Virus record (IMG/VR): IMGVR_UViG_3300020601_000007
Location: 32,001 to 96,000 of that record
Length of the DNA stretch: 64,000 nt
Reading direction: 5' to 3' (one strand)
DNA from: a virus
The notes under the pieces were generated by a model. The model saw nothing but the letters and a program-made list of their open reading frames with translations, had not been told where the DNA came from and made no database searches. Position numbers and translations under genes: made by a program. This document shows, one piece after another, positions 35,755 to 64,000 of the stretch. Every line of letters begins with the position of its first letter. Within the stretch, counting starts at the first letter, position 1.

Positions 35755-35833
35755 GATTGGTTTTGGGATTCCCTTTTCAGACTGGGAGTGTTTCGGGCAA
35801 CCTTTATGCCACCGGAGGGGCTGCCCCAACACA

Positions 35834-36034: not shown

Positions 36035-36052
36035 TGCTCATCACAGCAAATA

Positions 36053-37143: not shown

Positions 37144-37267
37144 AGTGACAACCAAACCGTTTCAGGACATAAATCCACCGAAGACATTGGGCGCCCCGCC
37201 CGAGACAAGGCTCAAGCAGGACACCCGTTGTCCCCCGTGCAGAACACGGGTGGAAAGGTCGGTGAAC

Positions 37268-37480: not shown

Positions 37481-37505
37481 CAGTTGGGAATACAAGGTGA
37501 CCGCC

Positions 37506-38537: not shown

Positions 38538-38569
38538 GACCACCTGTGAAACGAGAGGAACGACATTGA

Positions 38570-38579
38570 GTATATGAAG
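38570..38579 (-). promoter_or_regulatory. TATA-like box CTTCATATAC upstream of the core-protein gene
   Basis: 33-42 nt upstream of ATG 38537; identical to 35741-35750. Confidence 0.55.
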
Positions 38580-38687
38580 AAAATGTGATGGAATGTGTTT
38601 CTATGTGATACGCATGCCTGAAAAGTAGGTCAAACGTATGCGTTTTGACGGAAGCAACCTTCATACCCACTGCCCCACTCCACCCAG

Positions 38688-38948
38688 ATGATGAGCAATA
38701 GGCACGCTGTCCGGGTGCGAAAAATACCGGTCAGCGTGACACTATCACCTGAAGACTACGAATTCATTGAAATGCTCATCTCAACAAGACGATACACCAC
38801 TCGTGTTCAAGTCATTGAACGGGCACTACAACTTCTCAGACAGGACTTTGAACGCTATCAAGCATTTCTGGCCCAGCAAGGAAATCAACAATCCCTTCCG
38901 CAAGGGCAGCAGCCATCATCTCATAATTCAAGCCGTCACCGTCGTTGA
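38688..38948 (+). CDS. Ribbon-helix-helix (CopG/ParD-like) regulator
   Basis: KIPVSVTLSPEDYEFIEMLIS..RY.TR..VIERALQLL. Confidence 0.75.
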   Translation: MMSNRHAVRVRKIPVSVTLSPEDYEFIEMLISTRRYTTRVQVIERALQLLRQDFERYQAFLAQQGNQQSLPQGQQPSSHNSSRHRR

Positions 38949-39420
38949 CCTCGATAAGGACTGATGGTGTGTCAAACAGCACGGACGCTGCGTTGGTGAG
39001 GTAATTCTCAAACCCTGCTCCCTGAACGAGTGTCTTCACCCCGCTTTCCTCGAACTGATTCAAAAGTGCCTTCAACAAGGACTCATCTGTGACTTCAGGG
39101 ATGCTGAACAAAACGAACTGGTGTTGTGACCAGATTCCGAGGTCGTAGCCGAACTCGGTCTCTTCATCCAACTCGGGGAATGAGTGCAAATCAATATGAA
39201 CGGACGTTTGCTTTAACATCTGGAAAAATTCTTCGGCGAACTCACTTGATGCAGCAGCAGTTCGATTCAAATCAAGGATGCTACGAGCGTTGTCTCCAAT
39301 GATAACATGGAAATCCTCGCCCATGGATTCCAGTTTCTCCTCAAGGAGAGGGAGAAACAGAACGGCTCCGTCATCCCGGCCTTCACCGGAACCTGCGTGG
39401 GGGACGGTGATGAGAATCAT
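38836..39420 (-). CDS. Zn-dependent amidohydrolase/peptidase (N-formylglutamate amidohydrolase-like fold)
   Basis: ILITVPHA, DLNR, IDLHSF, VLIEV motifs. Confidence 0.65.
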   Translation of the reverse strand: MILITVPHAGSGEGRDDGAVLFLPLLEEKLESMGEDFHVIIGDNARSILDLNRTAAASSEFAEEFFQMLKQTSVHIDLHSFPELDEETEFGYDLGIWSQHQFVLFSIPEVTDESLLKALLNQFEESGVKTLVQGAGFENYLTNAASVLFDTPSVLIEVNDGDGLNYEMMAAALAEGIVDFLAGPEMLDSVQSPV

Positions 39421-40133
39421 CGTTTCAGATGCAAACGCTTCGGGGCTTTAGGCCTACCGCTCTTTTTGGCGGGCTTTGACCCGATGGGACGGGCTTTCTG
39501 CCATGTCCCGTTTCCAGCAGTGTAGTAATACCAATATTGGTATTCAGGTGACATGAAGAATGGAACGTGCTCAACGTAGTGCTCAAGGTTCCTTCCCTTG
39601 AGGTAGTCGGGACGGTCGTCAATCCGGAAAACGACCTTATTTTCTGACTGACTCCACACCGTCTCGGACATCAACTGAAGCCGCTGTGTCATGCCGATAC
39701 CAACGATGCCCTTTCCAGCACCCACCAAATACAGGTGTTCGATGGCGTCGTTGCTTCCCTTACGAACGAACGTTTGAATTTCATCAATGGCGATGACGCG
39801 ACGTATTCGCTTGAACCCCGGCTTGTTAGCGAGTGTGAAAATCAAATCCATCAACTTGTTCAATGCTGCGACTCGCTCGTCTTTCGCTGCTGGAGGGTGG
39901 AAAACGATGTTCTTTGTTTTGGAGAGCAGAGCAGCGTATGCTTCCATCGGTGTTTTGCAGATTCGACCGAGGTCCTTGATTTCTGATTTGGGGTCAACGA
40001 AAATCGTATGGATGCCTTCGCGCTGAAGTTGACGGAAAACCTCGGAGACGAAATACGTCTTTCCGCTTCGTGTCATTCCAAGAACGGCAGTGTGCCGCTT
40101 CTTCATGTTGTCAATGAGGCTACGAGAAACCAT
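39417..40133 (-). CDS. FtsK/HerA-superfamily A32-like genome-packaging ATPase
   Basis: Walker A VLGMTRSGKT, FVDPK, Walker B IAIDEIQ, GAGKGI.GIGMTQR.Q, SQSENKVVF; 238-aa single domain beside virion genes. Confidence 0.85.
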   Translation of the reverse strand: MVSRSLIDNMKKRHTAVLGMTRSGKTYFVSEVFRQLQREGIHTIFVDPKSEIKDLGRICKTPMEAYAALLSKTKNIVFHPPAAKDERVAALNKLMDLIFTLANKPGFKRIRRVIAIDEIQTFVRKGSNDAIEHLYLVGAGKGIVGIGMTQRLQLMSETVWSQSENKVVFRIDDRPDYLKGRNLEHYVEHVPFFMSPEYQYWYYYTAGNGTWQKARPIGSKPAKKSGRPKAPKRLHLKR

Positions 40134-40593
40134 ACATCCACCCGATGAGCCCTACACCAGCAAGGGCAATCATACCGGAATGTGGAGCGGCCATAAAGGT
40201 GTAGTCTGGAAAATTCTGCTTGAAACGTTGGCGGAGGTTGTGCTTGTCGCCGACACGCATCCAGTTGACCGGGTTCATCACGTCGGGGCTCAGGTTGTTC
40301 GTGTGCTGCAACCCAAGTGCGTGACCGTATTCGTGCGCAAGCAAGTCAAGGTTCCCTTTGGACTTCTCGTGAACAACGATGGTCTTTCCGATGGTCACTC
40401 CTTGAGGGAAATATCCCTTCCCGGTGTGATTGTAAAGCGTCTTTGCGGCTGGGGTCATATACCACTCCACGGGACCAGATGCAGCAACAACGTTCACCAA
40501 GTCTGCCCAGTCTTTGCTCGAAAGGATGGCAATCTGCGTCCCGTCAACACCGGTAGCGATGATGTTGAATGACGGATACGCTTCTGGGTTCAT
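40120..40593 (-). CDS. Metzincin (matrixin-like) Zn metalloprotease with a C-terminal TM
   Basis: AHEYGHALGLQH plus Met-turn DVMNP. Confidence 0.85.
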   Translation of the reverse strand: MNPEAYPSFNIIATGVDGTQIAILSSKDWADLVNVVAASGPVEWYMTPAAKTLYNHTGKGYFPQGVTIGKTIVVHEKSKGNLDLLAHEYGHALGLQHTNNLSPDVMNPVNWMRVGDKHNLRQRFKQNFPDYTFMAAPHSGMIALAGVGLIGWMYGFS

Positions 40594-40597
40594 GCAT

Positions 40598-41026
40598 TCA
40601 CCCCACATACAACAGGTGTCGCTTTCCTGACTTGAGTGAGCGTATCATTTTCTTTACGAGTTTTTCAAGTTCTCCACCAATCAATTCTCCTTTGGAATTC
40701 ACCGGCTTCTTGAGCATTTTTTCAAGCGACTTCGCAAGCGATTTCGACTCCCTGACATTGAGCGTGACGGTGAGGTGTGGCTCTTCTGTTTTGAAGTGTT
40801 TCAGAACAGTTGGGAGCACATAGCGGCTCCGGAAATCAACCACATTCGGGAGCGAATTGCAGAGGGCGTAAATCCATTCCGAACAGGCATCATACACCCA
40901 TTCATCCACATTTTGGCCCCTCATCATGGAGTCTTTGTTCTCAAGGATTTCCTTGAGGACGTAACCTTTCTTCCCGATGAAGTCGTTCTTCTTGTCGATG
41001 GTGTAAAGTTCGATGTCGTATCCCAT
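40598..41026 (-). CDS. Hypothetical protein
   Basis: Operon member; GGAAGTGA RBS. Confidence 0.6.
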   Translation of the reverse strand: MGYDIELYTIDKKNDFIGKKGYVLKEILENKDSMMRGQNVDEWVYDACSEWIYALCNSLPNVVDFRSRYVLPTVLKHFKTEEPHLTVTLNVRESKSLAKSLEKMLKKPVNSKGELIGGELEKLVKKMIRSLKSGKRHLLYVG

Positions 41027-41030: not shown

Positions 41031-41306
41031 TCACTTCCTGCTGTTCCCCAACCACCAACCAAGCATGGCGAAAATTGTGTCAGTTGCGATGTTCACTGGA
41101 CTGTCCATCACAGAGCGGTCCCACCCGATTGACTTCAGAACATTGGAGCCACCTTTGGTGTTTTCAACAATTTCACTGGCGGTGTGGATACCCAAGGTCT
41201 GCACTGCTGAGAAACCGGTCTGCGCCAAAACGATACCGGCAGCAAAGTGAACAAACGACCACTCATCAAGCGCAGCACGGTTTCGACGTCCGAAGAGTTC
41301 CATCAT
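41031..41306 (-). CDS. Small membrane-embedded metal-dependent hydrolase candidate
   Basis: DEWSFVHF..G, EIVEN, DS..N...D within hydrophobic helices. Confidence 0.6.
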   Translation of the reverse strand: MMELFGRRNRAALDEWSFVHFAAGIVLAQTGFSAVQTLGIHTASEIVENTKGGSNVLKSIGWDRSVMDSPVNIATDTIFAMLGWWLGNSRK

Positions 41307-44300
41307 CGCACCCCTGCTTCAACGGCCAACTTGTTGTCTGGCTTGCCCGGACCGGTGGACGAATCAGCACCAACGACAAACGCATAGACGCGCCCTGCCG
41401 CCCACTGATGTTGCTGAACACCCGGCCTGTGACCCACGCGCCATGCTGCGAGCCCCTTGTCGTAAATTTTTTCCAGAATCGACTTCTTGATTCCTGTCTC
41501 CTTGCGGATGCGGTTCAGAAACTTCTGCTTGGAGGAACTGCCGCTTGGCTTGTAGTCCTCGTCGATGTTCTTCCGGTAGAGCCGGTAATATTTCTCCTTG
41601 TGCTTGGACGGACCGATTTTCAGACCACGGGCTGTTGCCTTGATGTCGGACTTCCAGAACTTGTATGCTTCCGGGTCGTTGACGTCGTATTTGTAGCCCT
41701 TGTCAATCTCGTCTTCCGCAATCATTTTCTCCAGTTTGGTCAGTCCCTTGAGGTAGCGTTTGGGGAACTTTTTGCCACCGGGTGTGCGGGGGTTGCTGAA
41801 CAGACTCCCCAATGAATCAAAACCGGAACCTTCGTCATCATCATCCTCTTTCAGGCGGGCGATGATTTTGGGGTGGTCAGACTTCCTCCATTCGTCGAAC
41901 CACTTGATTTTCCGCTTGTCTCCGGGTGGCGAGAATGTGCCGTCGATGATTCTGCTCGAGACTGGAATGGCCCCAATGGGTTTCCAAGTTTCCGACCACG
42001 CTTCGATGTCTGCCTCTGTCCATCGTCCAGAGCGAATGTCCTGCAAAATCGTGTCCTCAAAGGTGCCAAGGTATTTAATATTCCATGGCATGATGTTTCC
42101 TTCGATGATGAACTCCTCATGTAGCACCCCGACCTCGTAAGGAACAGGCCTGAACTGTTCCGGGTCAACTTTCACTTTCAGCATCACCATGTTGGCGATT
42201 GCTTCCTCAAATTCTTCTCGTGTGGGCATCCGGTCCCGCTTTCCCGTGTCAAAAAACATCCCGTCGATTTGACCACCCATGACCCACGCTTGGTAGGGAG
42301 CATCGGGGTAAAAGAGGAAATTGAAATCAGCAGTGAGCCCCTTCTGCATGATTGAATTCAAGTTGTTCTTGTGCGTGAAGTGGTAGCCGAACTCGGGGAT
42401 TGGCCTTGGGGGGTTTGCCATCGAACCCATGAAGCCTGAGTCGAATGAAACGAACGGTGTCACCTTGATAGGGAGACCGGGCTCGAACGGGTCATCTCCG
42501 CCAAAGTCATCGCCCATTTCACGGAAGTAGATGTTCCCAATAGGAGACCATCGGAATCCCATCCTTTCAATATTCACCTCGTTCATTTCCTCTTGAACAA
42601 AAACCACCTCGATACCAACACCGTGGACACGCTCAAGGTATTCTTTGGTCTGTGCAACCAGCGGGCGGTATTGCTCGAAGAATGGCAAGTCACCACGCGC
42701 GACCTTGTATGCCTCGTATTGCACGTCGGGGAACATTTTCCCCTCAATCTCTTCCATGCTCTGTCCCATTCGCCTCCTGACCACCGTCTTCATCAAAAGT
42801 GCACGGGGGAGTGCTTCGGCGTAGTAATCACCGACCTTCTCTGCGGGGATTTCCAAAAACGGGGAGGGGGGATTGGGTGCGACTGGGTCAAAAGAAATGC
42901 CATTGATGACATCACTCCATGTTTGGTGTTCTGATTCGTATAGGTCTGAGGATTCACCAATATCGCCCCAATCCAGTTTCTGCTCTTCAGAGTCAATCAA
43001 CCATTGTCCTGCGTATTCAACATGTGTTGATGTCGCTGGGTCGTCTCGATAAGAGTAGCGGCCTTTCCTGTAATGGAAGCCTTTTCCTGCTAACCCCTTG
43101 ACACGCTCAATGCTCATCAAGTTCTCAGCAGAATCAAAAACAAATGTGGCTGTTTCCTTGAAATCATTTTCACTTAGACCGTGAAAGGTTTCGCCCGTAG
43201 GCAGGTTCTTCTTCATCCAAGCGTATGTTCGTGGAGCCTTTTCCTCCAGTTTCGCAAGTCCCTCTCCGATGCCGGGGATGAAATACACGTTATCGAACTT
43301 GAGCGAGCGTGCTGAGATTTCCTCAAGGTCCTCCTTCATTTTCCTGATGTTCTCACTGTATTCATCGTCTGTGTAATATGCGGAAGCAAACCTGCTTGGG
43401 GACTTCTTGGTTCGGAACCCGATGGCGTTTGGCTCGTCGCGAATGATGGCCTGCCCCTTCTTCCCCTTCCTTTGGTCGTTGTCTCCGAAAACAAACAGCG
43501 TGTCGGGCCGAGAACGAACATGTGCTGGCGTGATTTTTTCCGGGTGTGGCTCGAGTCGGGGCTTCAGGTCAGAAAAACCTCCGATGAACTTTCCGTTGAC
43601 GAAAATAGCCGGAATGAACTGATAATTCTCAGTGAGGGGGCCGATTGTTTCTTGATAACCAGACACCTTTTCGATGTCAACATACCGGTGCTTGAGATTC
43701 TTCTTCTCCACCAGTTTCTTCGCTTCCTTGCACCACTTGCAGTATTCCGCCCCGTAAATCGTAATTCCCTTCTTCAATGGCAGCGGCACAGGCTTCGGCG
43801 GATTCGACAACTGCGTGATGGAGATGGTCTGGTCAGTGAGCCCCGGAGCGTAGGAGGCATCTGAAGGGAACCATGGGTTTGGCCTCACCTCAGAATTTTC
43901 GAGTAGGTATTGGAGTCCGAAGTGCAGCGGCTGAGGGAAGTCATCGAGAGCAAACCACTGAGCCCTCTCGGTTTCCCAGTTCAGCGTCGGTTCAAATTCG
44001 TCTTCGACCACGGCCAAGAAGTTGTGATACCTGAACGTGCCACTCTCAAAAACAACCAGTGGAACCATTTCAATTGGTCCTCGGTAGCCAGCCTCCTCGG
44101 TCAGTTCTCGTCGGGCTGCTTCAACAGGGACTTCACCCGAATCAATCGCCCCGCCCCAGACACCCCATGTCCCGGGTTGTTCAACGTGTTGGGACCTGAG
44201 CGGCAGGAGGTAGCGCCCCGTCTTCTTCGCAACGACCAGACTTCCTGCGCCCTGACTCCCCCAGAATCCTGTTTTTTCCAGAGTCTCCTGATGCTCATCG

Positions 44301-47300
44301 TCACTGGTTGGGTTTGCCACTGCGGCTTGACCGACTTCTTTGAGGCCCCAATCATGAGCCCCCAACGAAATGTCCATTATCTCGGGCATTGAGTCGGTTG
44401 GCTCCTGCTGTGCTTCCTTTTTCTTCTGCTTTTTCCACTTCTTCCAGAAAGCAGCCGTCCCCCTTTCTCCTGTCATCATTGGTTTGAGTGTCCACAACGC
44501 ATGCTCCACGTGCGAGTCACGCCATAAGCCGACTTCCTTGGCAGGCTTGAGTTTGGTCATCCCTCCCAACTCGGTCTGGTTTTTCTTCACTGCTTTCATG
44601 AATTTTACCATCACAGCCTCCAACATTGGGTAGGCTCGGTTGTATTCTGCGTTTGCCTGCTCCCACTGTTTCCATGCGGTTTTGTAGCGGCGTTTGTCTG
44701 GGTCTTTCTGGCTGAGCAATTCTTTGCGAACAGCATCCAGCCTGAACCTCATGCTATTCATCGCAACGGCACCAGACAGTTGCTCAAGAGACTCGCTATC
44801 GAAGTATTTGTTCCCCGTCCCCCGTGGGCCGTCCTCCCACCACCAATCAATCAGGTGCATGCTTTTGTCCCCCACCAAGAAATTCGGTGGGTTCCGGTCA
44901 GGCGTTAGGCCCATTCCCACCACGTCGATGTAAGCCTTGACAAAGCGGTCAAAGACTGGCTGCTTGAATTTGCTAACCTTCCTGAGATATTGAATCGTCT
45001 GCTTCATTTGGAGATGTGGTTTTTCCATCCCCCGCCACAGAGAGGAACCAACCGGCAGCAGGTCAGGAAGCGGCTCGGCATCAAGGCGTTTCATGATGGT
45101 GTGGTATCGCTCAACCTTTCCATCACCGAGCCCGTAAAGAGGGAAGCCAAACAGTTCTGAAGCACTCTTGGGCCATGGCGGGTATTTGTGGACGATGGTG
45201 TGTGTGCTGGGAAACACTGGCTTGCTCGAACCCTCCTTGCCTGCCAACCACTTTTTCATTTCTCGGTAATATTCTGGGCTTGTGTTTCGGTCCACTTTGA
45301 ACACAAAGTCTGTCCCGGGGATGTTGAATACGGTTCCGAAAGCACCAGACCCAACCAAGTTCTTTTTGAGGACCGAGTTGATTGCTCGTGCTGCCAAGTC
45401 GGGCGCCTTCAGCATTTTCTTTGGTGGGTTGGCTTTGGTGTATCCAGCAGTGTGAGATTTTTCGGGAGGGTTCATTTTCACTTCTGTTTTGCCCCACTTG
45501 CGCTTCTCTGTCATACCGACCCACGGGACGTCGGGACAGGGCGACATACGCTCGTAGCCGTTCTTTCGTGCCCACCGCCAAGGGTCATGTCCCCAAACCC
45601 ACAGGGAAAGGAGGCGGCGTGATGGCTTGGACTGCGTCTTCTGTGCACGGACAAGGGGGCCTTTGCGCTCCTCAGCATTCGGATTGTATGGGAAGGCACT
45701 CGTCCGCTTGACGAAACGGACCTGACGCTTGCACCAGTCCCAATCGGTCTCGCCCTTGAGTGGGTCATCAGATGGACCTGTCCACTTGCTCAGTGCTTTC
45801 TCGTAGTAGTCCTCAATGATACGAGGACCGGGTTTGATGTAGTCCTTCGGCCCGGTCAAACCGAGTTTGGCTCGCATTTTCAGGATGCGTCGGCCACTGA
45901 CACGACCACTCTTGATGTTGTTCCAGTCTTTCGCTTGCTGCTTGGAAAGGCCAGCCTTCTTGCCCAGTGGTGAATCAAGGAAGGCTTTCAGTTCCTTGTT
46001 CTTCATGTTGATGAGGTGAACCCACTCCTCGAACCAGTCGAAGAGGTCTTTGGGGTTTTCAAATTCATCGTCATCATCAAATGATTCCTTCGGTGAAACG
46101 AATGCGAAATAGGATTCATTCACATTCCAAACATTGACAGGCTTTACCGCTGGGTCGGTCCATGGCTTTTGGTATCGTCCTCCTAATCCCTCGAGCCCGA
46201 GATATTTCTCCCGGGCCTTCTGGTCCAACTTGTAGAATTCGACTTTGTCCACCTTGACCGTTGAGTCGGAGAACATCCTCACTTCACTTTCTGCAATCCC
46301 GAATGTGACGTTGGCCAGAAGGGTTCCGAACCAATTGACGTCACCAAAGGGAACGGTCCCCATGAGGAAGGCGATTCGACTGCTTGGGTGGAATTTGAAC
46401 TGGCGGCTCATGGCCCCCCCGAATTGGTCAGCCCCGTCTCGTGCGTTCGACCAATACAAGCCGACCCCGTATTTATTCCACAGTTCATTCAGAATTTCAG
46501 GAGGCTCTGATGTGAACATGGCCCGATACACCTTGACACGTTCACCACGGAACTTCTTGAGGTGTTCTTGAAAAATGTGCTCGGCAGCGTTTGCTGGAGA
46601 GACTCCAGTGTATCCCCAGCCCGCCAACAGTTCCCTGAACATTTTCTTTCGCCTTGCGATAATGTCCTTTTGCTTTTGAGTTGCTTTGGATGCATTGAAA
46701 TTGGGGGGAGGCCTTCCAGCGAATCGCCAAGCGATGTTGTCAAGGAGGCCCTTGTAATCGGCAGAAAGGATGACGTCCTTCAAGCGGAGGCCTTCCGGGG
46801 GGTTCGCCTTCGCTTCAGGCTCAATAAAGGTGTTCTCGGTTCTCCCGAGGGAGTAGCCCAAGGAAACCGGAGATACGTCGTAAGGGACCGGTTTCGCACC
46901 ACGTTCTCGGACTCGCCCAGCCGAATCAATATACGTGCCGGAGTGATTCCGAACAACCATGGTCTGCCCCAATTTGTTCGCTGATGTTTGTGCGAAATCG
47001 AACGCTTCCGCTTTTTCATAGAAATAGCCAACGTATTGCTTGAGACTCGGTGGTGGGGGAGGTGGTGGGCTTCTGCTACGCTTTGCGGGTGGTGGGGGAG
47101 GTGGGGGTTGAGGATTCGAGATGAAAGCATCGAGAGAAAATCGACTCTCCTTCGCTTCGAGTTCTGCTACACCCTCCACCGGAACAAGTGCCTGAAGTGG
47201 CGGGGGGATGACCTTCGTTTTCGGTGAACGAAGGTCTGCGCGAGTTTTGGGGGATAAAGTGGAGCCTTCTGGTAGTGGGCGGTTGTCAGGGGAAGTGACA

Positions 47301-50170
47301 AAGGCAACGTGAGTGCCAGCATCAGTCGTGCGAATCACTTGCTGGTTCCATTCAATCAGCCTTTGACGCTTTGCTTCATAAGCCTCATTGTTGTTCTCAA
47401 AAAGCGCCTCCAGCATGTTGAATGGCACTCCCGCTTTGCTGTTGAAAAATTCATTTTTTCGAGTGTGTCGCTCGAACTCGCTCATCTCATTTAGGGCGGG
47501 TTCAACCACAGCGAGAATTTTCGACTCGTGCACGCGAGGATTCGTCAGAATGTTCCCCATGCTTTTGGCCATTTTGTCAAACAGTTGCTCGTATGAACCA
47601 CTCTTCACCGTGACGAACTGGTCGAAGGGAATGCTCTTGGCTTCAGCGACTTGTGCTGCTCCCTCTTCGGCTTGCTTCTTTGCTTCTTCCAGCGACATGC
47701 CGCCACGGCGCATGATGCGCTGCACCATCTCTTTCCCAGACACATCGGGCTTGAGAAAAATGGTGTAGGCCTGTGGGAAGACCTTCTTGTAGGCTTTCAC
47801 CCCTTTCAGGTCTGCTGAAATCACGTTGACGGGGTAGTTGAAATCAACCCACCTGCGCCCGTAGTAATGTCCGTTCTCTCGGAGAGCCCACTCAACGAAC
47901 TGGTCGCTCTCAATCATCTGCTCGAACTCGGCCTTGCTGGTGAAAATCGCATCGACGCCGTCTTTTTCTCGTGAGCGACGGGGGCGGCTGGTGACTTTGA
48001 TTGGCTCACCCGCTACCTCGAACTTCTCAGTCATGTGTCGGATGAGTGTGCTTTTGCCAGAGCCGGTTGGACCGCTGACGATGACCAGACCGACCTTTTT
48101 CGCTTTCCGTGGGTTGATGCGAATGGCAGCCTCCACTTTGTCAATGACGATGCGGTCATCAAAGCCCTTCAGGATTTCCCCGACTTCCTCGTAAATCGTC
48201 TGAGCGACTTCTGCACCGAAGTCATCGACTTGATGCTCACGCTTGATGCTAACCCACAAAGAGGAAGTTGCAGGAATCAAGCGGACCGAAACATCGACCC
48301 CGTCGGGAATCATGCCAGTCAACGCCGGGAGGGTGTCAGTGTTGAACTTGAAGTATGCAGTGGACCCACCCTGTCGCTCACGAAAGACCCCGTCGAGATT
48401 GTCCGTGAATTGCTCAAACGAGGCTCCGACCAAAGCACTGCTGATTTCTTTGGTGCCGTAATCGCCCTGCCAATTGATGAACATCATGGACGGGCGGGGG
48501 TTGGGAAGTGGCTTCTCAAGGAATTTTTTCAGTTTCTCCACAAGCCCGCTCATGGCCCACTCCTTGTATGCTCGGCCATCACCCTTGAACTGAGTAGAAT
48601 TGCGGGCTTGCTTTGCATAGTCAGTGAACATGTGCGGGTGATGCGTCACAATGTCTGCCATCTGCATGATGAGGGCGACACCGTAATATTCGCCGACTTG
48701 CGTTTGAAAGAAGTCGTCGCTGATGTTTCGTCGCCCAACATCGGATTCCAACATCAACGAAACGATTTCCTCGAATGCATGGGGAACGTCCAGTGCGTCT
48801 GCGATGAATTCGTCCCACATGTATTTGCCTTCACGCGAATGGTGTTCACCGTCCTTTTCACGCACCTTCCCGATGTCATGGTAAAGAGCCACCGTGTAAA
48901 GCAGGTCAAGGAAGGACCAGTTTGCAGTGATTCGCTGATTGAGATACGCTCGGGTTTTCTTGCGGAGTTCCGAATCGAAGCCGAGTGACTCCAGTTTCCA
49001 CAATCTGCTGATTCCCCTGCTGTCTGGCTCGAAGTGATGACTCAGCCAATAGTAGACGTAAAGCGTGTGTGCGAACTCATCTCCACCATAGTGAACGTAG
49101 TCGTAGTCAACTCCCTGAAGGTCGGTGAGCGAATGGTGATGGTATTTGCCGGGGATGGTTGGCTTTGTCGGGTTGGGGAGCGGATTGGCTAAAGGGCCCT
49201 CGTCCCCCTTCTTGTATTTCGGATTGACGAAGTGCTGGTAGGTGATTTTCATCAGGCCCTTGTATTTGTCATTGAACATCCGCACCATCTCAGCGGTGAC
49301 CAAGTTGCAGTATTCGACAGGGCCGAGGCTATCGTCGTCCTTGTATTTCATTTCAGCCTGCTCAATCATGGCGTCAACATCGTCGATGAAATGGCCCTCG
49401 TCAATGTCGAGGTATTCATCCACCTTCTTCTTCTTGACATCAAAGCGGAAGTAGTCGATTCGGTCTCGCATCACCGTGTAGTTGTGCTTCACGCCCGGGG
49501 CGAATGCAAGGTCTGCATAGAATTGAATATCGTCAGCGGATGTCAGGGAGGGCTCGTCCTTTGATGGGTGCGTGTGGTAAAAGGCGACTTCATTGTCTGG
49601 TCGCTTGTTGATTTTGATTTTGGGCATGATGAGCGATGCACGACGGTGGAACACCTTTCCGTTGGAGGTGGCCCACCCGTAGGACTCACCACTGAACGAG
49701 ACGAAAGACCACAATTGGTCAAGGAACTTCTTGTCATTCAACCGCTTGTAGGGGAATTCTCGGAATACCTTGTGCGGGTTATGCGTCACCATGTCGTTCA
49801 TTTCTTTGGTGAAGTCGCTGGCCGAAACGGGGTTCTTGAGCACACCGTCGAAAGAGAGGTGTCCTTTCGCAATCGTGACACGGCCACTTGGATTGGAACG
49901 AACCGTTGTCACCTCATCACACATCAACTTCACCGGGACGACCCGTGGGCTGCTGAAGGAACGTGTGTTTGTTGGGACCGTGGCCGTCCGGTCAATGAAA
50001 TGACTCATCGCTTTTCGAGCCTGCGAGCGAGAGACCTTTCCGTTGAACATGACGAACCACGTGCCGTTCTCCATGTCCAAGGTCGCTTCCTTGATGTCGA
50101 GGCCACCCAACACAGACCCGCTCTTTGGGAAGCGCGTGTATTTGCGGACGACAGAGGGGGGCAAGTTCAC
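41303..50170 (-). CDS. 2955-aa multidomain (polyvalent) protein/polyprotein: JAB, HD, guanylate kinase, ART-like, DUF3140-like, kinase, Nudix, glutaredoxin, macro-like, second ART-like, DUF5824-like
   Basis: YHTHPS...SADD; LYHDIGK; SGPTGSGKST; VYRAM...GLYWS...ESEV; LINM...SGRRI...WGHDPW; VGSGAFGTVF...FKV...HLIDW; GG.IDSGE....AARRELTEEAG; CKWC...IPAIF; FVFGDN...G..GQA; YHFT...L.SI...GL; IYDKGLAAW..GHRPG...QWA.GRVYAF. Confidence 0.9.
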   Translation of the reverse strand: MNLPPSVVRKYTRFPKSGSVLGGLDIKEATLDMENGTWFVMFNGKVSRSQARKAMSHFIDRTATVPTNTRSFSSPRVVPVKLMCDEVTTVRSNPSGRVTIAKGHLSFDGVLKNPVSASDFTKEMNDMVTHNPHKVFREFPYKRLNDKKFLDQLWSFVSFSGESYGWATSNGKVFHRRASLIMPKIKINKRPDNEVAFYHTHPSKDEPSLTSADDIQFYADLAFAPGVKHNYTVMRDRIDYFRFDVKKKKVDEYLDIDEGHFIDDVDAMIEQAEMKYKDDDSLGPVEYCNLVTAEMVRMFNDKYKGLMKITYQHFVNPKYKKGDEGPLANPLPNPTKPTIPGKYHHHSLTDLQGVDYDYVHYGGDEFAHTLYVYYWLSHHFEPDSRGISRLWKLESLGFDSELRKKTRAYLNQRITANWSFLDLLYTVALYHDIGKVREKDGEHHSREGKYMWDEFIADALDVPHAFEEIVSLMLESDVGRRNISDDFFQTQVGEYYGVALIMQMADIVTHHPHMFTDYAKQARNSTQFKGDGRAYKEWAMSGLVEKLKKFLEKPLPNPRPSMMFINWQGDYGTKEISSALVGASFEQFTDNLDGVFRERQGGSTAYFKFNTDTLPALTGMIPDGVDVSVRLIPATSSLWVSIKREHQVDDFGAEVAQTIYEEVGEILKGFDDRIVIDKVEAAIRINPRKAKKVGLVIVSGPTGSGKSTLIRHMTEKFEVAGEPIKVTSRPRRSREKDGVDAIFTSKAEFEQMIESDQFVEWALRENGHYYGRRWVDFNYPVNVISADLKGVKAYKKVFPQAYTIFLKPDVSGKEMVQRIMRRGGMSLEEAKKQAEEGAAQVAEAKSIPFDQFVTVKSGSYEQLFDKMAKSMGNILTNPRVHESKILAVVEPALNEMSEFERHTRKNEFFNSKAGVPFNMLEALFENNNEAYEAKRQRLIEWNQQVIRTTDAGTHVAFVTSPDNRPLPEGSTLSPKTRADLRSPKTKVIPPPLQALVPVEGVAELEAKESRFSLDAFISNPQPPPPPPPAKRSRSPPPPPPPSLKQYVGYFYEKAEAFDFAQTSANKLGQTMVVRNHSGTYIDSAGRVRERGAKPVPYDVSPVSLGYSLGRTENTFIEPEAKANPPEGLRLKDVILSADYKGLLDNIAWRFAGRPPPNFNASKATQKQKDIIARRKKMFRELLAGWGYTGVSPANAAEHIFQEHLKKFRGERVKVYRAMFTSEPPEILNELWNKYGVGLYWSNARDGADQFGGAMSRQFKFHPSSRIAFLMGTVPFGDVNWFGTLLANVTFGIAESEVRMFSDSTVKVDKVEFYKLDQKAREKYLGLEGLGGRYQKPWTDPAVKPVNVWNVNESYFAFVSPKESFDDDDEFENPKDLFDWFEEWVHLINMKNKELKAFLDSPLGKKAGLSKQQAKDWNNIKSGRVSGRRILKMRAKLGLTGPKDYIKPGPRIIEDYYEKALSKWTGPSDDPLKGETDWDWCKRQVRFVKRTSAFPYNPNAEERKGPLVRAQKTQSKPSRRLLSLWVWGHDPWRWARKNGYERMSPCPDVPWVGMTEKRKWGKTEVKMNPPEKSHTAGYTKANPPKKMLKAPDLAARAINSVLKKNLVGSGAFGTVFNIPGTDFVFKVDRNTSPEYYREMKKWLAGKEGSSKPVFPSTHTIVHKYPPWPKSASELFGFPLYGLGDGKVERYHTIMKRLDAEPLPDLLPVGSSLWRGMEKPHLQMKQTIQYLRKVSKFKQPVFDRFVKAYIDVVGMGLTPDRNPPNFLVGDKSMHLIDWWWEDGPRGTGNKYFDSESLEQLSGAVAMNSMRFRLDAVRKELLSQKDPDKRRYKTAWKQWEQANAEYNRAYPMLEAVMVKFMKAVKKNQTELGGMTKLKPAKEVGLWRDSHVEHALWTLKPMMTGERGTAAFWKKWKKQKKKEAQQEPTDSMPEIMDISLGAHDWGLKEVGQAAVANPTSDDEHQETLEKTGFWGSQGAGSLVVAKKTGRYLLPLRSQHVEQPGTWGVWGGAIDSGEVPVEAARRELTEEAGYRGPIEMVPLVVFESGTFRYHNFLAVVEDEFEPTLNWETERAQWFALDDFPQPLHFGLQYLLENSEVRPNPWFPSDASYAPGLTDQTISITQLSNPPKPVPLPLKKGITIYGAEYCKWCKEAKKLVEKKNLKHRYVDIEKVSGYQETIGPLTENYQFIPAIFVNGKFIGGFSDLKPRLEPHPEKITPAHVRSRPDTLFVFGDNDQRKGKKGQAIIRDEPNAIGFRTKKSPSRFASAYYTDDEYSENIRKMKEDLEEISARSLKFDNVYFIPGIGEGLAKLEEKAPRTYAWMKKNLPTGETFHGLSENDFKETATFVFDSAENLMSIERVKGLAGKGFHYRKGRYSYRDDPATSTHVEYAGQWLIDSEEQKLDWGDIGESSDLYESEHQTWSDVINGISFDPVAPNPPSPFLEIPAEKVGDYYAEALPRALLMKTVVRRRMGQSMEEIEGKMFPDVQYEAYKVARGDLPFFEQYRPLVAQTKEYLERVHGVGIEVVFVQEEMNEVNIERMGFRWSPIGNIYFREMGDDFGGDDPFEPGLPIKVTPFVSFDSGFMGSMANPPRPIPEFGYHFTHKNNLNSIMQKGLTADFNFLFYPDAPYQAWVMGGQIDGMFFDTGKRDRMPTREEFEEAIANMVMLKVKVDPEQFRPVPYEVGVLHEEFIIEGNIMPWNIKYLGTFEDTILQDIRSGRWTEADIEAWSETWKPIGAIPVSSRIIDGTFSPPGDKRKIKWFDEWRKSDHPKIIARLKEDDDDEGSGFDSLGSLFSNPRTPGGKKFPKRYLKGLTKLEKMIAEDEIDKGYKYDVNDPEAYKFWKSDIKATARGLKIGPSKHKEKYYRLYRKNIDEDYKPSGSSSKQKFLNRIRKETGIKKSILEKIYDKGLAAWRVGHRPGVQQHQWAAGRVYAFVVGADSSTGPGKPDNKLAVEAGVR
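42410..42874 (-). repeat. Copy 1 of a duplicated NP-bounded coding module
   Basis: Shares GGGTCATCTCCGCCAAAGTCATCGCCCA and AAAAACCACCTCGATACC...CACGCTCAAGGT with 58475-58888. Confidence 0.9.
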
Positions 50171-53100
50171 TCTTCTTCACCTTCCCCTTCAAAGACCATG
50201 AACGCGTCAAATGGGCGAATGACGCCCCGCTCTGAACGGGCGATGCTCTTCTTGCTCTTGGAGTCTTCCGTGTGTTCGGGGTTGGCAAGCACCCTGCGAC
50301 GACTTTCATTACGCTTCTCATTGTCGGCTTTCGAGTCAAGGGCAAGGCGTGCAAATTGAGACGCGATGTTTTCTGCCTGCTGGTCATAGAACGTTGCATC
50401 GAACTCCTCGTCGGGGAGTTCACCAACAGGAACGGGGAAGGATTGGAAGGAACGCTGGTCAAGGTTTGCGAGTGCTGCCACTTCGCCATCACGGGCCTTC
50501 TGCTCCTCATCCACCATGTAGTCCATCAGCAATTGATTGTGGTAGCGCACTTCTTCACGGTTTTTGTCGCTGACAACGCCACCGATGTTCGGTCCCTCTT
50601 CATCGTAAATGGCATCGTCACTACCAAGCGCAAATCCGGGGATGTCGAGGAAGTAAGCGATTCCATCCTTGTCCTTGGGGAAACGAATTTTTTGCGGGTC
50701 GTAGTGCAATCCCCACTTCCCCTCTTCTGACTGCAATTGGTCTGCGAACTCCTGCTTCAGCGTCAACCAATCATCAGGGGCGGATGTCCGGCCACCTTGC
50801 TTGCCTGCTGGTTGCACCGGTTTGTGCCCGATAGGTGTCTCTTCAAAGACAAGGCCCGGATGTTCTGGGAGCATGAAAGGGCGTCGGCCACCACTGACCC
50901 AACGGGGTCCGGCAGCATATCCGTAGAAAGGATTCGGCATAACGGACGTTAGACCTGTTTTTGAGACAAAAAGTGGTGTCGCTGCGCTGGGAGAATCATC
51001 TGGAGAAACCATCAAAGCAGGATTGACCATAGGGTCAGCCCTCACACCGATTTTGAATCCACCCGCTCCGTCACCTTGACGGAACGAATAGTCGGCTGAA
51101 TCCTCTATGTCCTTATCGTAGCGAACACGAAGGAAGTTCGCTGGGCCGACCAGTTTGCGGACATACCGTTCGCTTTTCGTGACCGAAAGCCCCATCTGAA
51201 AACCGGTATGCCCCCGGGTTGGTTTGCGAAGAAGCGTAGGACCGGCGATGGACCGCCTGTTGGATAACTTCTGGAAATCAACCTCAACAATCACCCGAGG
51301 GTCGACAATTTGAATGTCGGGGTATCGCTCTTCCAAACCCGGGTTGCGGACAGCGTGCTCGAATTGCCCGTATTCACCGGTCTGCTCACCTAAAACCTCC
51401 TTGAACAACTTCTTTCCTTCCTCATGAGGGATGTTGATGGCCCGACCGACTGGAACAAAGGCCATCCCCTCGTTTGTTTTCTTGGAAACACCAATCAAAA
51501 TGGAGGCGAGGCGTGGCTTCTTATCCTGCCAGACCTTTCCCTTGTAAATGCCCATGATGACGCCGTCGATGGTGTATTTGCGCTTGACCTTGTATCGACG
51601 GTCGCCTGCGTAGACAATGAGGCCTTCATTCATTCGTTCCTGCACTTGAGAACGCCAGATGGCTTGAACTGTCGCCTCGTAATCGTCCTCAACAACAGTC
51701 GGGTCAACGCATCGAATGCGGTCTCCTTCCAAGTCTGCGGCCTTCATGATGCGCTCCTCGAAGGGCAGAGAGGAAACATCCTTTCCGTCAACAGAAAGCA
51801 CATCGACGATAACTGCCTTCAGTCGGCGGAAGGTGGTAGGGTCGTGGTTGTCTGTTCCCGTTGCGAGAATTGAGCGAGACTCTTCATTACCCATCACACG
51901 TCCATTTCCATCTACTACGATGGACTCCACAACCACCTCGATACTGTCCACATCGTTGTCCTGACAGATGCGCTCGAACTCACGGGTCAGGTAATTGTCC
52001 CACCCGATAACGCCACCTCTTGCAGTCACCATGACGCTTCGCTCGACATCCATCCCTGCTCGGCTTGCACCTTTTCGTGAATCGAGGCGCTTCCCATGAA
52101 CTTTGAAGCCACCCCTTTTGTTGAATGCAAGGAGCCCGACATTACCGTCATATTTCGGTGTCACGACAAGCCGGGGGTGTTGAAGAAGTTCATTCCCGAT
52201 GTCCCGGTATCGGATGCCACCGGAACCACCTGTCCAAGGCTGCTTTTTCCATGCTTGCAGTTTGACAACCAGTGGGTTCTCCTTGTCTGGGTTATCGGTA
52301 GGAATGCGGAAGCAGGGGGGTGCAGCCTCCGTCTCCTCAAAACCATCTCCGACTTCAGCGGAAATGAACCAAGCGTCAGCCATCCCTTTCAGTCGTTCAA
52401 AGTCGCGCATCACAGCGACAGGATGGGCTTCTTGCGGGTTGAACTTCTTCACTCGGTCAAGCGCAACCGGGATTGCGCAATAACCAGTGGAATCCTCAAG
52501 AGCAGGCTTGTAGTGCATGCCGAAGAGCATTCGTGTCATCGTTTTGCCACTCATTGGGCTCTTGTCAACGAAAGGCACCCGACGAGTGATGGCTTCTTCT
52601 CGGTTGAATGCTACGTCCGGCGTTGCTTTCATGATGGCGCTGTATGTGTAATCCCAGCACTCCTGCACCGTCTCAAAGGTCATTGGTTTGGTAGCGAACC
52701 AGATGTGAAAGGTCTTGCCTGTGAACAAAACGAGCGTTGAGTGGATGAGGCTGAGTCGCTTTGCGATGTCGTAAGTCACCCGAGCAAGTTCATCAAATGG
52801 CATTTCTGCCGGATTGTCAAGGTCAATGACGCCGACCTTTGGGTGGTTCCCTGAGGGATTGGGGCGCCACCAAATGTCCCGCAGGCCTTTGTTTGACCCA
52901 CCGTGCTTTCCCATTCCTGTTCCGTAACTGGTTGCGTCGATGTATTCCCGAATCTCCTTCTCAGAGTGAAGCGTGAACCGCTGGCTGGTCATAACCTGAG
53001 CGTTGCGGAACAACACCGCTTGCAGTTCGTGATGCATCGTCTTGCGAAGACGGAATGGGAGCGTCAGTTGATTGTAGCGGTAAGCCATCGCCTTCATGCT

Positions 53101-63570: not shown

Positions 63571-64000
63571 TCACTTCCTTTTGTAATACCGTCCTCGGTT
63601 CTTCCGGCGGATGCGGAAGAGAGAACGCTTCTTCGGGTTCTCTGCATAGATGGGCTCACCGTAAAGGGCGATGAACTTCTCCCATGCTGCCTTGATTTTC
63701 TTGTTGGCCGTGAATGGTTTGATGGTCGAATACGAGCGACCGGTGTCTTTGTCGGTCACCCGAGCCTTCTTGAAAAGGATTTTTCCTGCTTTGCCCTTCT
63801 TGCGTGGCAACTGAATAATCCAAGGCATGCGTGTGCCACTGTCCTTGTGTTCGGCTTTCCAAGCAACGTAGCCAGCGTCCTCGAAGCCACCGAGCAAATC
63901 ACGAAGACCTGTGTTGTCTGTCCCCGGTTTGCCAGCGATGGCCATCGTTCCCTTGGAACGCTTGGCGTTCTTCTTTTCTGCCGCAGTGAACTTGAACTGT
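63571..64000 (-). CDS. Basic protein, 5'-truncated by the window edge
   Basis: Frame is open to the window end; ends YAENP followed by a K/R-rich tail. Confidence 0.7.
   Translation of the reverse strand, partial: QFKFTAAEKKNAKRSKGTMAIAGKPGTDNTGLRDLLGGFEDAGYVAWKAEHKDSGTRMPWIIQLPRKKGKAGKILFKKARVTDKDTGRSYSTIKPFTANKKIKAAWEKFIALYGEPIYAENPKKRSLFRIRRKNRGRYYKRK

What the first reader, a model, noticed from the sequence alone, without database searches (positions are those of the whole stretch)
41303..50170. Giant viral protein whose enzyme domains are delimited by Asn-Pro (NP) motifs: candidate new polyprotein/cargo system
Seen: by manual count the 2955-aa ORF has about 22 NP dipeptides, versus about 4 in the 1585-aa Rpo1 and about 1 in PolB. 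Most fall at domain junctions: JAB (about 49780-49230) LANPLPNP, HD (49170-48500) PLPNP, unknown, RINP, guanylate kinase (48110-47545) LTNP, unknown, ISNP, poly-Pro segment, KANP, ART-like (46800-46060) FENP, DUF3140-like (46050-45480) KMNP/KANP, kinase (45420-44320) VANP, Nudix (44310-43880) RPNP/LSNP, glutaredoxin plus macro-like plus unknown, APNP, duplicated module, MANP, ART-like (42410-41795) FSNP, DUF5824-like. The loose consensus is hydrophobic-x-N-P-[P/R/K]. Established: Asn-Pro bonds self-cleave by Asn cyclisation in FlhB/YscU (NPTH) and reovirus mu1, and phage polyvalent proteins combine ART, Nudix and kinase domains. Inference: NP is either a cleavage site that releases individual enzymes or a repeated docking tag that loads the chain into the virion. 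Either way it would allow plug-and-play assembly of an injected enzyme kit.
Basis: partly seen in the sequence, partly recalled or inferred. Interest (0 to 1): 0.92.

Follow-up and report, generated by a model that had tools for sequence, protein, structure and literature searches.

The report
Asn-Pro seams in modular viral polyprotein
A 2955-residue protein of an uncultured marine archaeal virus-like element is a chain of swappable enzyme modules joined by a nearly invariant Asn-Pro pair; this looks like a new cut-here code, perhaps read by a protease domain in the same protein, but no cutting has been shown.

Summary
The ORF 41303-50170(-) has exactly 22 NP against 7.6 expected. No global or local-composition shuffle reaches 22.

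All 84 long homologues show the same roughly 3-fold excess. At seven module junctions Asn is kept in 248 of 250 cells and Pro in 245 of 250, inside linkers that otherwise vary, among relatives of 25-70% identity.

Homology breakpoints fall on the NP sites. Relatives gain, lose and reorder modules exactly there. Free-standing copies of modules have no NP. The codons vary, so selection acts on the protein.

Four neighbouring large ORFs carry the same seams; the rest of the 110-kb genome does not.

My best reading, at about 0.5, is that the seams are processing sites of a polyvalent polyprotein. The favoured agent is the JAMM/MPN-like domain at residues 115-325. It has an intact metal site and is found only in NP-rich proteins (72 clusters among 1.84 billion). 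A small metzincin next to the packaging ATPase is a second candidate, but a complete relative lacks it.

Cleavage, packaging and injection are all unshown. The docking-tag reading is disfavoured.

The scan noted NP seams before in at least 14 other genomes.

The parts
41303..50170 (-). Giant modular ORF (2955 aa) with 22 NP dipeptides, about 17 of them at module junctions
49835..50170 (-). Module 1, residues 1-112: N-terminal mostly beta domain of unknown family, ending in the invariant seam ...VLK-NP (N113)
   Evidence: AF2 secondary structure. N113 and P114 are invariant in 34 of 34 homologues. No Pfam or Atlas match.
49196..49828 (-). Module 2, residues 115-325: JAMM/MPN-like (JAB) metalloprotease-type domain with E162, H199-x-H201, S211-x-x-D214
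   Evidence: AF2 pLDDT 93.5. The 16 best VIA matches are all JAMM/MPN (JAB-fold) chains, Z 5.5-6.9. Foldseek returns mostly the same family at E 0.015 and weaker. Motif residues are invariant. No Pfam JAB hit.
48503..49171 (-). Module 3, residues 334-556: helical HD-like domain, bounded by seams N329/N333 and N557
   Evidence: Pfam HD at E 4.4e-4, just under the cut-off. All-helical in AF2. Seam conservation 32/34 and 34/34.
48116..48499 (-). Module 4, residues 558-685: conserved alpha/beta module of unknown family
47543..48112 (-). Module 5, residues 687-876: guanylate kinase, bounded by invariant seams N686 and N877
   Evidence: Pfam PF00625 at 9e-16. Foldseek guanylate kinases at E 5e-13. 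Seams kept in 34/34 and 30/34 homologues.
46805..47539 (-). Residues 878-1122: variable region with seam N1019 and a poly-Pro run (1021-1042)
46058..46801 (-).
   Evidence: HSP starts at 1119-1122. No significant Pfam or PDB match.
45473..46054 (-). Conserved core module, residues 1373-1566 (weakly DUF3140-like), bounded by N1372 (40/40) and N1567
44315..45427 (-).
43880..44311 (-). Module of residues 1954-2097: Nudix hydrolase between seams N1953 and N2098
   Evidence: Pfam PF00293 at 1e-13. Breakpoints.
42875..43801 (-). Residues 2124-2432: glutaredoxin, DUF7831 and a tail, joined without NP between them
   Evidence: Pfam PF00462 and PF25176. Breakpoints near 2208 and 2319 have no NP. In P0090 the DUF7831 module is NP-flanked.
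42416..42871 (-). Module of residues 2434-2585, a paralogue (53% identity) of residues 223-346 of the 829-aa ORF; NP-bounded in both
41795..42412 (-). Module of residues 2587-2792, weakly DarT/ART-like
   Evidence: Pfam DarT at E 0.019 only
41306..41791 (-). C-terminal DUF5824 module, residues 2794-2955, starting at invariant seam N2793
   Evidence: Pfam PF19141 at 1.6e-17. Seam kept in 33/33.
50167..53478 (-). Neighbouring 1103-aa ORF, NP-rich (9 against 2.3 expected), sharing a module with giant ORFs of relatives
57035..59524 (-). Neighbouring 829-aa ORF, NP-rich (13 against 3.6 expected), sharing NP-bounded modules with giant ORFs
60999..63092 (-). Neighbouring 697-aa ORF, NP-rich (5 against 2.3 expected; 3 full-motif sites)
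63571..64000 (-). 3' end of a 923-aa NP-rich ORF (8 against 2.4 expected) that runs beyond the window, to genome position 98342
40120..40608 (-). 162-aa metzincin-type ORF (HEYGHALGLQH, a candidate Met-turn M-N-P, C-terminal hydrophobic helix); second candidate protease
   Evidence: Syntenic in L002-L006. Absent from the complete relative G003.
39417..40133 (-). FtsK/HerA-type (A32-like) packaging ATPase, same operon
38836..39420 (-). Free-standing 194-aa homologue of a module that is NP-flanked inside the giant ORFs of relatives; it has no NP itself

Best explanation
The ORF encodes a polyvalent polyprotein. It is a string of independently folding enzyme modules: a JAMM-like domain, an HD-like domain, guanylate kinase, Nudix, glutaredoxin-DUF7831, DUF5824 and several unknowns. 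The modules are joined by short flexible linkers that carry the motif [V/P/A/I]-[R/K/L]-x-Asn-Pro-(Pro).

I read this motif as a proteolytic processing site. After translation the chain, and the NP-rich products of four neighbouring genes, would be cut at the seams into separate proteins.

The favoured agent is the JAMM/MPN-like metalloprotease domain at residues 115-325, acting in cis and in trans. The motif hydrophobic-basic-x-Asn would play the part that Leu-Arg-Gly-Gly plays for ubiquitin-type JAMM substrates. The small metzincin encoded two genes downstream is the second candidate.

Shown: the seam motif, its near invariance, its place in disordered linkers, module exchange at the seams, and the fold and intact metal site of the JAB-like domain.

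Inferred: cleavage itself, the scissile bond, the agent, and any packaging of the products into particles.

My odds: cleavage by any agent about 0.6; by a virus-encoded metalloprotease about 0.5; by the JAB-like domain specifically about 0.35.
For: (1) NP is about 3-fold enriched in this protein, in all 84 long homologues (1330 against 412 expected) and in every carrier of the JAB subfamily (457 against 153).

(2) At seven junction columns, Asn is kept in 248 of 250 cells and Pro in 245 of 250, among relatives of 25-70% identity. Asn is never replaced by Asp, Ser, Gln or Gly, while the flanking residues vary. This is the conservation expected of a recognition or chemistry residue, not of a spacer.

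(3) Codons at the seams vary, and AAYCC is enriched only in frame 0 (22 against 8 and 5). The constraint is on the protein.

(4) Seams lie in low-confidence coil between folded domains.

(5) Modules are inserted, lost, permuted and exchanged between genes exactly at seams.

(6) Free-standing homologues start 5-8 residues after the seam position and have no NP. Where DUF5824 is internal (G003), an NP follows 3-4 residues after the point where this protein ends at its stop codon. Seams therefore mark where natural termini lie.

(7) The full motif occurs 16 times in five adjacent large ORFs and 0 times in about 105 other ORFs of the genome. That is the pattern expected of the substrate set of one protease.

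(8) Residues 115-325 fold with pLDDT 93.5. Their best structural matches are JAMM/MPN chains: PfJAMM1 Z 6.9, Rpn11 6.9 and 6.6, Cap3 6.5, BRCC36 6.5. E162, H199, H201, S211 and D214 are invariant.

(9) This JAB subfamily has only 72 cluster representatives among 1.84 billion, all in NP-rich proteins. It sits N-terminally in one clade and C-terminally in another.

(10) The JAB domain is present in all 3 related records searched, whereas the metzincin is missing from a complete 127.6-kb relative. That relative's seams keep the same consensus.

(11) Established knowledge: polyvalent proteins of phages and plasmids are proposed to be autoprocessed by embedded peptidases (PMC5512222).
Against: - No experimental or proteomic evidence of cutting exists.
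- No split-gene relative with boundaries at seams was found. The short homologues mostly look like frameshifted or truncated gene calls.
- Pro at P1' is unfavourable for most endopeptidases. To my knowledge, no JAMM enzyme is known to cut next to Asn-Pro.
- The JAB-like domain gets no Pfam JAB hit, and its structural Z scores of 6-7 are moderate. RadC, a JAB clade suspected to act on nucleic acids, scores nearly as well (Z 6.1).
- The link between JAB and NP richness is partly phylogenetic, because all carriers are homologous polyproteins.
- Two domain junctions lack NP.
Confidence: 0.5

Rival explanations
1. The seams are not cut. NP(P) is a structural joint, such as a helix N-cap, a polyproline-II start or a secondary-structure breaker, that insulates the folding of neighbouring modules. 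The protein then works as a beads-on-a-string multi-enzyme.
For: - Linkers around the seams are Pro-rich, and Pro follows NP in 26% of sites.
- N686-P687 sits exactly at the start of a helix in the model.
- Large uncleaved multidomain proteins are common.
- No cleavage has been shown.
Against: - A spacer does not need an invariant Asn. No Asp, Ser, Thr or Gly replacement occurs in 250 cells.
- The model of residues 1-900 has about 30 helices, and only one of them starts at an NP (N686-P687).
- An upstream consensus at positions -3 and -2 is shared by unrelated junctions and by distant clades.
- PP is not comparably enriched.
Confidence: 0.22
2. The seams cleave themselves without a protease. 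The Asn side chain attacks its own carbonyl and forms a succinimide, as in the asparagine peptide lyases FlhB/YscU (N|PTH) and reovirus mu1 (N42|P43). This might happen slowly or after assembly.
For: - Asn is the one residue that can do this chemistry, and Asn is conserved even more strictly than Pro.
- Five of the ten lyase families are viral coat proteins that mature inside particles (PMC3207474).
- Pro after Asn blocks the competing deamidation route (established chemistry, from my own knowledge).
Against: - Known lyases place the Asn inside a conserved fold that supplies the catalytic partner. Here the seams lie in disordered linkers between unrelated domains.
- No NPTH motif and no homology to families N6 or N7 was seen.
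- Uncatalysed Asn-Pro cleavage is slow (my own knowledge).
- The conserved residues at -3 and -2 suggest recognition by a partner.
Confidence: 0.12
3. The seams are cut, but by the membrane-anchored metzincin (40120-40608) or by a host protease during particle maturation. The JAB-like domain then has another role, for example removal of ubiquitin-like modifiers or nucleic-acid processing as proposed for RadC.
For: - The metzincin has an intact HExxHxxGxxH motif and a candidate Met-turn.
- It sits between the polyprotein and the packaging ATPase in six relatives.
- Astacin-type metzincins favour an Asp-like residue at P1' and Pro at P2' (my own knowledge). This would fit a cut before Asn-Pro.
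Against: - No metzincin motif or homologue was found in the complete 127.6-kb relative G003, which still has NP-rich polyproteins with the same seam consensus.
- Pfam scores for the metzincin are below the cut-off (22.3 against 24 bits).
Confidence: 0.12
4. NP is a repeated docking or packaging tag. A capsid or membrane receptor would bind it to load the chain, or each module, into the particle.
For: The motif is confined to a block of genes next to the morphogenesis genes. Short linear motifs in disordered linkers are typical docking sites.
Against: - Seams number modules minus one. Terminal modules carry no NP at their free ends.
- Free-standing homologues lack NP, including one in this same genome.
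- One tag per chain would suffice for loading.
Confidence: 0.06

Closest known systems
Polyvalent proteins of phages and conjugative elements (Iyer, Burroughs, Anand, de Souza, Aravind 2017; PMC5512222)
   Same: - Many unrelated enzyme domains in one polypeptide of a mobile element.
- Rampant domain shuffling among relatives.
- An embedded peptidase proposed to release the domains.
- A location next to virion genes.
   Different: - That paper describes no conserved junction motif.
- Its usual peptidase is a zincin-like MPTase, not a JAB-like domain.
- Its domain vocabulary (ParB, ArdC-N, methylases, helicases) was not found here.
- Nearly all of its large examples are bacterial, whereas this element is of the archaea-linked 'magrovirus group D' type.
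Polyprotein maturation codes of large dsDNA viruses: African swine fever virus pp220/pp62 cut at Gly-Gly-X by pS273R, and adenovirus protease sites (my own knowledge)
   Same: A dsDNA virus makes polyproteins that are cut at a short repeated motif. The protease belongs to a family that normally removes ubiquitin-like modifiers.
   Different: - Those proteases are cysteine proteases of the Ulp/adenain type, and their motif ends in Gly-Gly.
- Their products are structural proteins.
- Here the motif is x-[R/K/L]-x-Asn-Pro, the candidate is a JAMM-type metalloenzyme, the modules are enzymes, and cutting is unproven.
JAMM/MPN+ metalloproteases that cut after ubiquitin-like tails (PfJAMM1 with SAMP2, Rpn11, AMSH, CBASS Cap3)
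   Same: The fold matches (Z 6.5-6.9). The Glu...His-x-His...Ser-x-x-Asp metal-site motif is invariant.
   Different: - No HMM-level match to Pfam JAB families.
- The spacer between His-x-His and Ser is two residues longer.
- The presumed substrate motif ends in Asn-Pro, not Gly-Gly.
- The subfamily is confined to these viral polyproteins.
Asparagine peptide lyases: FlhB/YscU (Asn|Pro-Thr-His) and reovirus mu1 (Asn42|Pro43) (PMC3207474)
   Same: An Asn-Pro bond is the maturation site. Several families act in virus particles.
   Different: Those sites sit once per protein inside a dedicated fold that catalyses the reaction. Here 15-20 sites per protein sit in flexible linkers between unrelated folds, with no NPTH motif and no homology.
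2A / StopGo peptides (D-[V/I]-E-x-N-P-G-P) of RNA viruses
   Same: An NP-containing motif separates the products of one ORF.
   Different: The obligatory Gly-Pro after NP is absent from all 22 sites. 2A is known only with eukaryotic ribosomes (my own knowledge).

Membership tests
Polyvalent proteins (Iyer et al. 2017) | Two to fifteen disparate enzymatic or binding domains in one polypeptide of a virus or plasmid | tested here: met
   Guanylate kinase, Nudix, glutaredoxin, DUF7831, DUF5824, HD-like and JAB-like domains plus several unknown modules
Polyvalent proteins (Iyer et al. 2017) | Mosaic architectures: relatives differ by domain gain, loss and reordering | tested here: met
Polyvalent proteins (Iyer et al. 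2017) | Embedded peptidase domain (typically a zincin-like MPTase) for autoprocessing | tested here: inconclusive
   There is no MPTase in the protein. A JAB-like domain with an intact metal site is present instead. In that paper, JAB (RadC) domains are read as acting on nucleic acids.
Polyvalent proteins (Iyer et al. 2017) | Delivered into the host with the DNA, or packaged in the virion | not testable with these tools
   The only indication is the operon context with a packaging ATPase
JAMM/MPN+ metalloproteases | MPN fold | tested here: met
   AF2 pLDDT 93.5. The 16 best VIA matches are all JAMM/MPN (JAB-fold) chains, Z 5.5-6.9, rmsd about 3 A over 87-129 residues. The Z scores are moderate.
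JAMM/MPN+ metalloproteases | Glu ... His-x-His-x(7)-Ser-x(2)-Asp metal-binding and catalytic motif | tested here: met
   E162, H199, H201, S211 and D214 are invariant. The spacer is x(9) rather than x(7).
JAMM/MPN+ metalloproteases | Match to the curated family HMMs (Pfam JAB, Prok-JAB) | tested here: not met
   No such hit at E up to 1. phmmer against PDB sequences also finds none.
JAMM/MPN+ metalloproteases | Peptidase or isopeptidase activity after a C-terminal tail motif | not testable with these tools
   The complex prediction gave no verdict (see Tried and rejected)
Asparagine peptide lyases (MEROPS N6 FlhB/YscU, N7 reovirus mu1) | Scissile Asn embedded in the family's own catalytic fold (for N6, an NPTH loop) | tested here: not met
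   The seams lie in low-confidence linkers between unrelated domains. None of the 22 sites is NPTH. There is no family match.
2A / StopGo peptides | C-terminal N-P-G-P | tested here: not met
   No NP site is followed by Gly
Metzincins (for ORF 40120-40608) | HExxHxxGxxH zinc site followed by a Met-turn | tested here: inconclusive
   The motif HEYGHALGLQH and the M111-N112 pair are invariant in five relatives. Pfam M10 scores 22.3 bits against a cut-off of 24. No fold prediction was made.
Magrovirus group D elements (Philosof et al. 2017, PMC5434244) | Contigs with archaeal-type PolB, a thermosome subunit, a resolvase and RNA polymerase subunit A, and no head-tail morphogenesis genes | tested here: met
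   Rpb1-type RNAP, PolB, Cpn60/TCP1 and resolvase are present in the window. No portal, terminase or HK97 hits were found. No phylogeny was run.

The most novel reading that the evidence does not exclude
The Asn-Pro seam is a new proteolytic code. A virus-specific JAMM-family metalloprotease, carried inside the polyprotein, recognises hydrophobic-basic-x-Asn-Pro in linkers. It cuts its own chain and four sister polyproteins into about 30 separate proteins. This would be the first polyprotein expression strategy in an archaea-associated dsDNA virus and a specificity unknown for JAMM enzymes. The seam would also act as a universal adaptor that lets any domain be spliced into the cargo set.
Probability: 0.3. 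Interest if true: 0.9.

Novelty: new variant of a known kind. Interest (0 to 1): 0.76.

Why it matters
- It would give a simple, testable rule for how a large group of abundant but enigmatic marine elements expresses dozens of enzymes from a few giant genes. This group, 'magrovirus group D', has had no morphogenesis or expression biology described.
- It would extend polyprotein processing, familiar from RNA viruses and a few eukaryotic dsDNA viruses, to prokaryotic or archaeal dsDNA viruses.
- It could define a new protease specificity. A short, portable cut site with its cognate protease is also of practical interest for multi-protein expression.
- If the seams turn out not to be cut, an invariant two-residue joint shared by hundreds of unrelated domain junctions would still need an explanation.

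Tried and rejected
- DNA-level explanation (recombination site or nucleotide motif): rejected. The codons vary and the enrichment is frame-specific.
- Pro-rich-linker artefact: rejected by local shuffles, and PP is not comparably enriched.
- Genome-wide compositional habit: rejected. NP-rich ORFs are confined to one gene block.
- 2A-like skipping: no NPG at any site.
- Split-gene relatives with boundaries at seams: the 'shorter' homologue search returned mostly truncated or frameshifted calls and gene calls from internal Met codons. It gave no clean split.
- Complex prediction of the JAB domain plus zinc with the 42-residue linker 1551-1592: 'no answer', score 0.02 against a mark of 0.32. This is no evidence either way.
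- Sequence searches of the JAB-like, 'kinase' and 'ART-like' modules against PDB: nothing significant.
- ESM Atlas for the N-terminal domain and for a putative capsid protein: no usable hit.
- Foldseek on the 900-residue model found only guanylate kinases.
- Literature: no paper in the held library describes NP-delimited polyproteins or JAMM-processed viral polyproteins.
The HCIV-1 paper reports no internal processing.
Synteny was taken from the search for related loci instead.
- A wider search for the metzincin found only the same virus group.
Full report
WHAT IS THERE

The window is bases 32001-96000 of a 110,123-bp IMG/VR virus record. It encodes an Rpb1-type RNA polymerase subunit, a family B DNA polymerase, a thermosome-type chaperonin and a resolvase. 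It has no recognisable head-tail genes. This is the gene set that Philosof et al. (PMC5434244) gave for the unresolved 'group D' magroviruses of Marine Group II archaea. Later papers still describe that group as lacking capsid genes and possibly plasmid-like.

The ORF 41303-50170(-) is open for 2955 codons. It lies in a long run of co-directional, overlapping genes. That run continues downstream into a small metzincin-type ORF, an FtsK/HerA-type packaging ATPase and several highly conserved unknown proteins.

THE OBSERVATION

There are exactly 22 NP dipeptides against 7.6 expected. No shuffle out of 5000 reaches 22, and NP is the most enriched dipeptide. Shuffles that keep local composition in windows of 10-40 residues reach at most 19, so Pro-rich linkers are not the cause.

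The codons for Asn and Pro vary freely. AAYCC is enriched only in the reading frame (22 against 8 and 5). Selection therefore acts on the protein.

The RNA polymerase subunit (4 against 3.5 expected) and PolB (1 against 1.7) are not enriched. Four other large ORFs of the same block are:
- 50167-53478
- 57035-59524
- 60999-63092
- a 923-aa ORF that starts at 63571 and runs off the window

The fuller motif [PVAI]-[RKL]-x-N-P occurs 16 times in these five ORFs and never in about 105 other ORFs of the genome.

FAMILY-WIDE CONSERVATION

There are 84 homologues of 1650-4500 residues in marine metagenomes. All of them show NP at about 3 times expectation, 1330 against 412 in total. The context logo is [P/V/A] at -3, [R/K/L] at -2, any residue at -1, then N-P, followed by Pro in 26% of sites.

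In alignments of relatives that share 25-70% identity, the junction seams are essentially invariant while their flanks vary:

| Seam | Kept in homologues |
|---|---|
| N113 | 34/34 |
| N329 | 32/34 |
| N557 | 34/34 |
| N686 | 34/34 |
| N877 | 30/34 for the NP pair (Asn kept in all 34) |
| N1372 | 40/40 |
| N2793 | 33/33 |

Over these columns, counting this protein as well, Asn is kept in 248 of 250 cells and Pro in 245 of 250. Asn is never replaced by Asp, Ser, Gln or Gly. An internal NP (1496) is kept in only 5 of 40.

SEAMS ARE MODULE BOUNDARIES

BLASTP breakpoints between this protein and 45 non-redundant homologues pile up on NP sites. For example, 33 alignments start at 2773-2793 (NP at 2793) and 47 breakpoints fall at 1337-1383 (NP at 1372). 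Overall 74% lie within 15 residues of an NP against 21% for random sites, and 0 of 2000 random placements reach that value.

Pfam domains start about 10 residues after a seam: guanylate kinase, Nudix, glutaredoxin and DUF5824.

An AlphaFold2 model of residues 1-900 (mean pLDDT 77.6) puts NP@113, 329/333 and 557 inside segments with pLDDT below 50, NP@877 four residues from another such segment, and NP@686 in coil just before a helix.

Minimal relatives (P0086 and P0087, about 1360 aa) consist of the conserved core (residues 1-877 here), the conserved module 1372-1567 and DUF5824. These parts are joined through single NPs. This protein carries about 1200 extra residues of modules between two NPs at the place where P0086 has one. 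Other relatives permute the order, with DUF5824 before the 1372-1567 module or the JAB-like domain at the C-terminus.

Modules also move between genes. Residues 2434-2585 are 53% identical to residues 223-346 of the 829-aa neighbour, and both copies are NP-bounded.

Free-standing versions have no NP:
- ORF 38836-39420 of this genome starts with Met five to eight residues after the position where the homologous module of P0076 and of G003 follows an NP.
- A giant-virus MAG encodes a solitary DUF5824 protein that starts seven residues after the seam position.
- Where DUF5824 is internal (G003), an NP follows three to four residues after the point where this protein ends at its stop codon.

The seams thus sit where natural termini sit, and their number is modules minus one. 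Two junctions, on either side of DUF7831, have no NP here, although P0090 has NP at both.

PROTEASE CANDIDATES

Residues 115-325 fold confidently (pLDDT 93.5). An exhaustive structural comparison lists JAMM/MPN proteins almost exclusively at the top: PfJAMM1 Z 6.9, Rpn11 6.9 and 6.6, Cap3 6.5, BRCC36 6.5, RadC 6.1 and AfJAMM 5.5. Foldseek lists mostly the same family at weak E-values.

The motif Glu162 ... His199-x-His201 ... Ser211-x-x-Asp214 is invariant, with a spacer two residues longer than the classical one. Pfam gives no JAB hit.

A full HMMER scan of 1.84 billion cluster representatives finds only 72 proteins with this domain. All of them are NP-rich (457 against 153 expected for those of 500 aa or more). 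They include a distant clade in which the domain is C-terminal.

The second candidate is the 162-aa ORF 40120-40608. It has HEYGHALGLQH, a candidate Met-turn and a C-terminal hydrophobic helix. It keeps its place between polyprotein and ATPase in six related loci. It is absent, by homology and by motif, from a complete 127.6-kb relative with terminal repeats (G003). That relative keeps the JAB-like domain, NP-rich polyproteins and the same seam consensus. No other protease family was found among 41 further window ORFs.

INTERPRETATION

The invariance of Asn-Pro in otherwise free linkers, an upstream preference shared by unrelated junctions, restriction to one set of proteins, and the match between seams and natural termini all point one way. 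A single trans-acting reader of the motif is the most economical explanation, and a protease is the simplest such reader.

The concept is that of polyvalent proteins with an embedded processing peptidase (PMC5512222). It also resembles the Gly-Gly-X polyprotein codes of ASFV and adenovirus (my own knowledge). The motif and the candidate enzyme are new.

I favour the JAB-like domain because it is universal and intact. I hold this loosely for three reasons: Pro at P1' is an awkward substrate, the structural scores are moderate, and RadC-type JAB domains may not be peptidases.

Self-cleavage through Asn cyclisation, as in the asparagine peptide lyases (PMC3207474), is chemically attractive. It lacks a common catalytic scaffold here.

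A purely structural joint does not explain an irreplaceable Asn.

A docking tag is contradicted by tag-less free-standing modules.

RELATION TO EARLIER NOTES OF THIS SCAN

The same stretch was noted from an overlapping window. NP or R-x-N-P seams were reported and followed up in at least 14 other genomes, with the same caveat that no cutting has been shown. I re-tested the claims on this DNA.

For this element I report four further points:
- the fold-level support for the JAB-like domain
- its exclusive association with NP-rich proteins
- the metzincin and its absence from a complete relative
- the assignment to magrovirus group D

TOOL NOTES

The complex prediction gave no verdict.

Noticed in passing
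window 1377-6212, 6163-8964, 25820-27481: The window carries the hallmark set of the unresolved 'magrovirus group D': an Rpb1-type RNAP subunit, PolB and a thermosome, plus a resolvase that I did not locate. It also has an FtsK/HerA packaging ATPase and conserved unknown proteins. Published work found no morphogenesis module for this group, so the block 31747-40133 may be it.
   Followed up: partly
window 35068-36108 (C-terminal two thirds): This ORF is 83-95% identical in protein sequence across relatives whose other proteins are only 30-55% identical (L003-L006). That is unusually strong constraint. It has no Pfam or PHROG match. It could be a capsid or core protein.
   Followed up: no
window 47045-47110: Two runs of seven prolines (QPPPPPPP...SPPPPPPPS) lie directly after seam N1019. 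Such runs stall ribosomes without aIF5A/EF-P.
   Followed up: no
window 40120-40608: A mini-metzincin of 162 aa with a C-terminal hydrophobic helix. Its invariant, candidate Met-turn reads M-N-P, and a second NP sits at residues 7-8.
   Followed up: partly
window 42875-43801: Glutaredoxin and DUF7831 are fused here without NP seams, while in P0090 the DUF7831 module has NP on both sides. This looks like seam loss that produced a permanent fusion.
   Followed up: partly
homologues P0071, P0049, P0123: Public MAG labels for homologous polyproteins disagree: 'Euryarchaeota archaeon', 'bacterium' and 'Candidatus Marinimicrobia bacterium'. This suggests that viral contigs were binned into cellular MAGs. 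The host remains unproven.
   Followed up: no
window 57035-59524: The NP-rich 829-aa ORF starts with a zinc ribbon and contains a YbjQ_1 (putative heavy-metal-binding) domain.
   Followed up: no
L008 9932-10429 (giant-virus MAG contig): DUF5824 also occurs as a small free-standing protein in a contig labelled as a giant-virus MAG. The module is therefore shared between eukaryotic giant viruses and these elements.
   Followed up: partly
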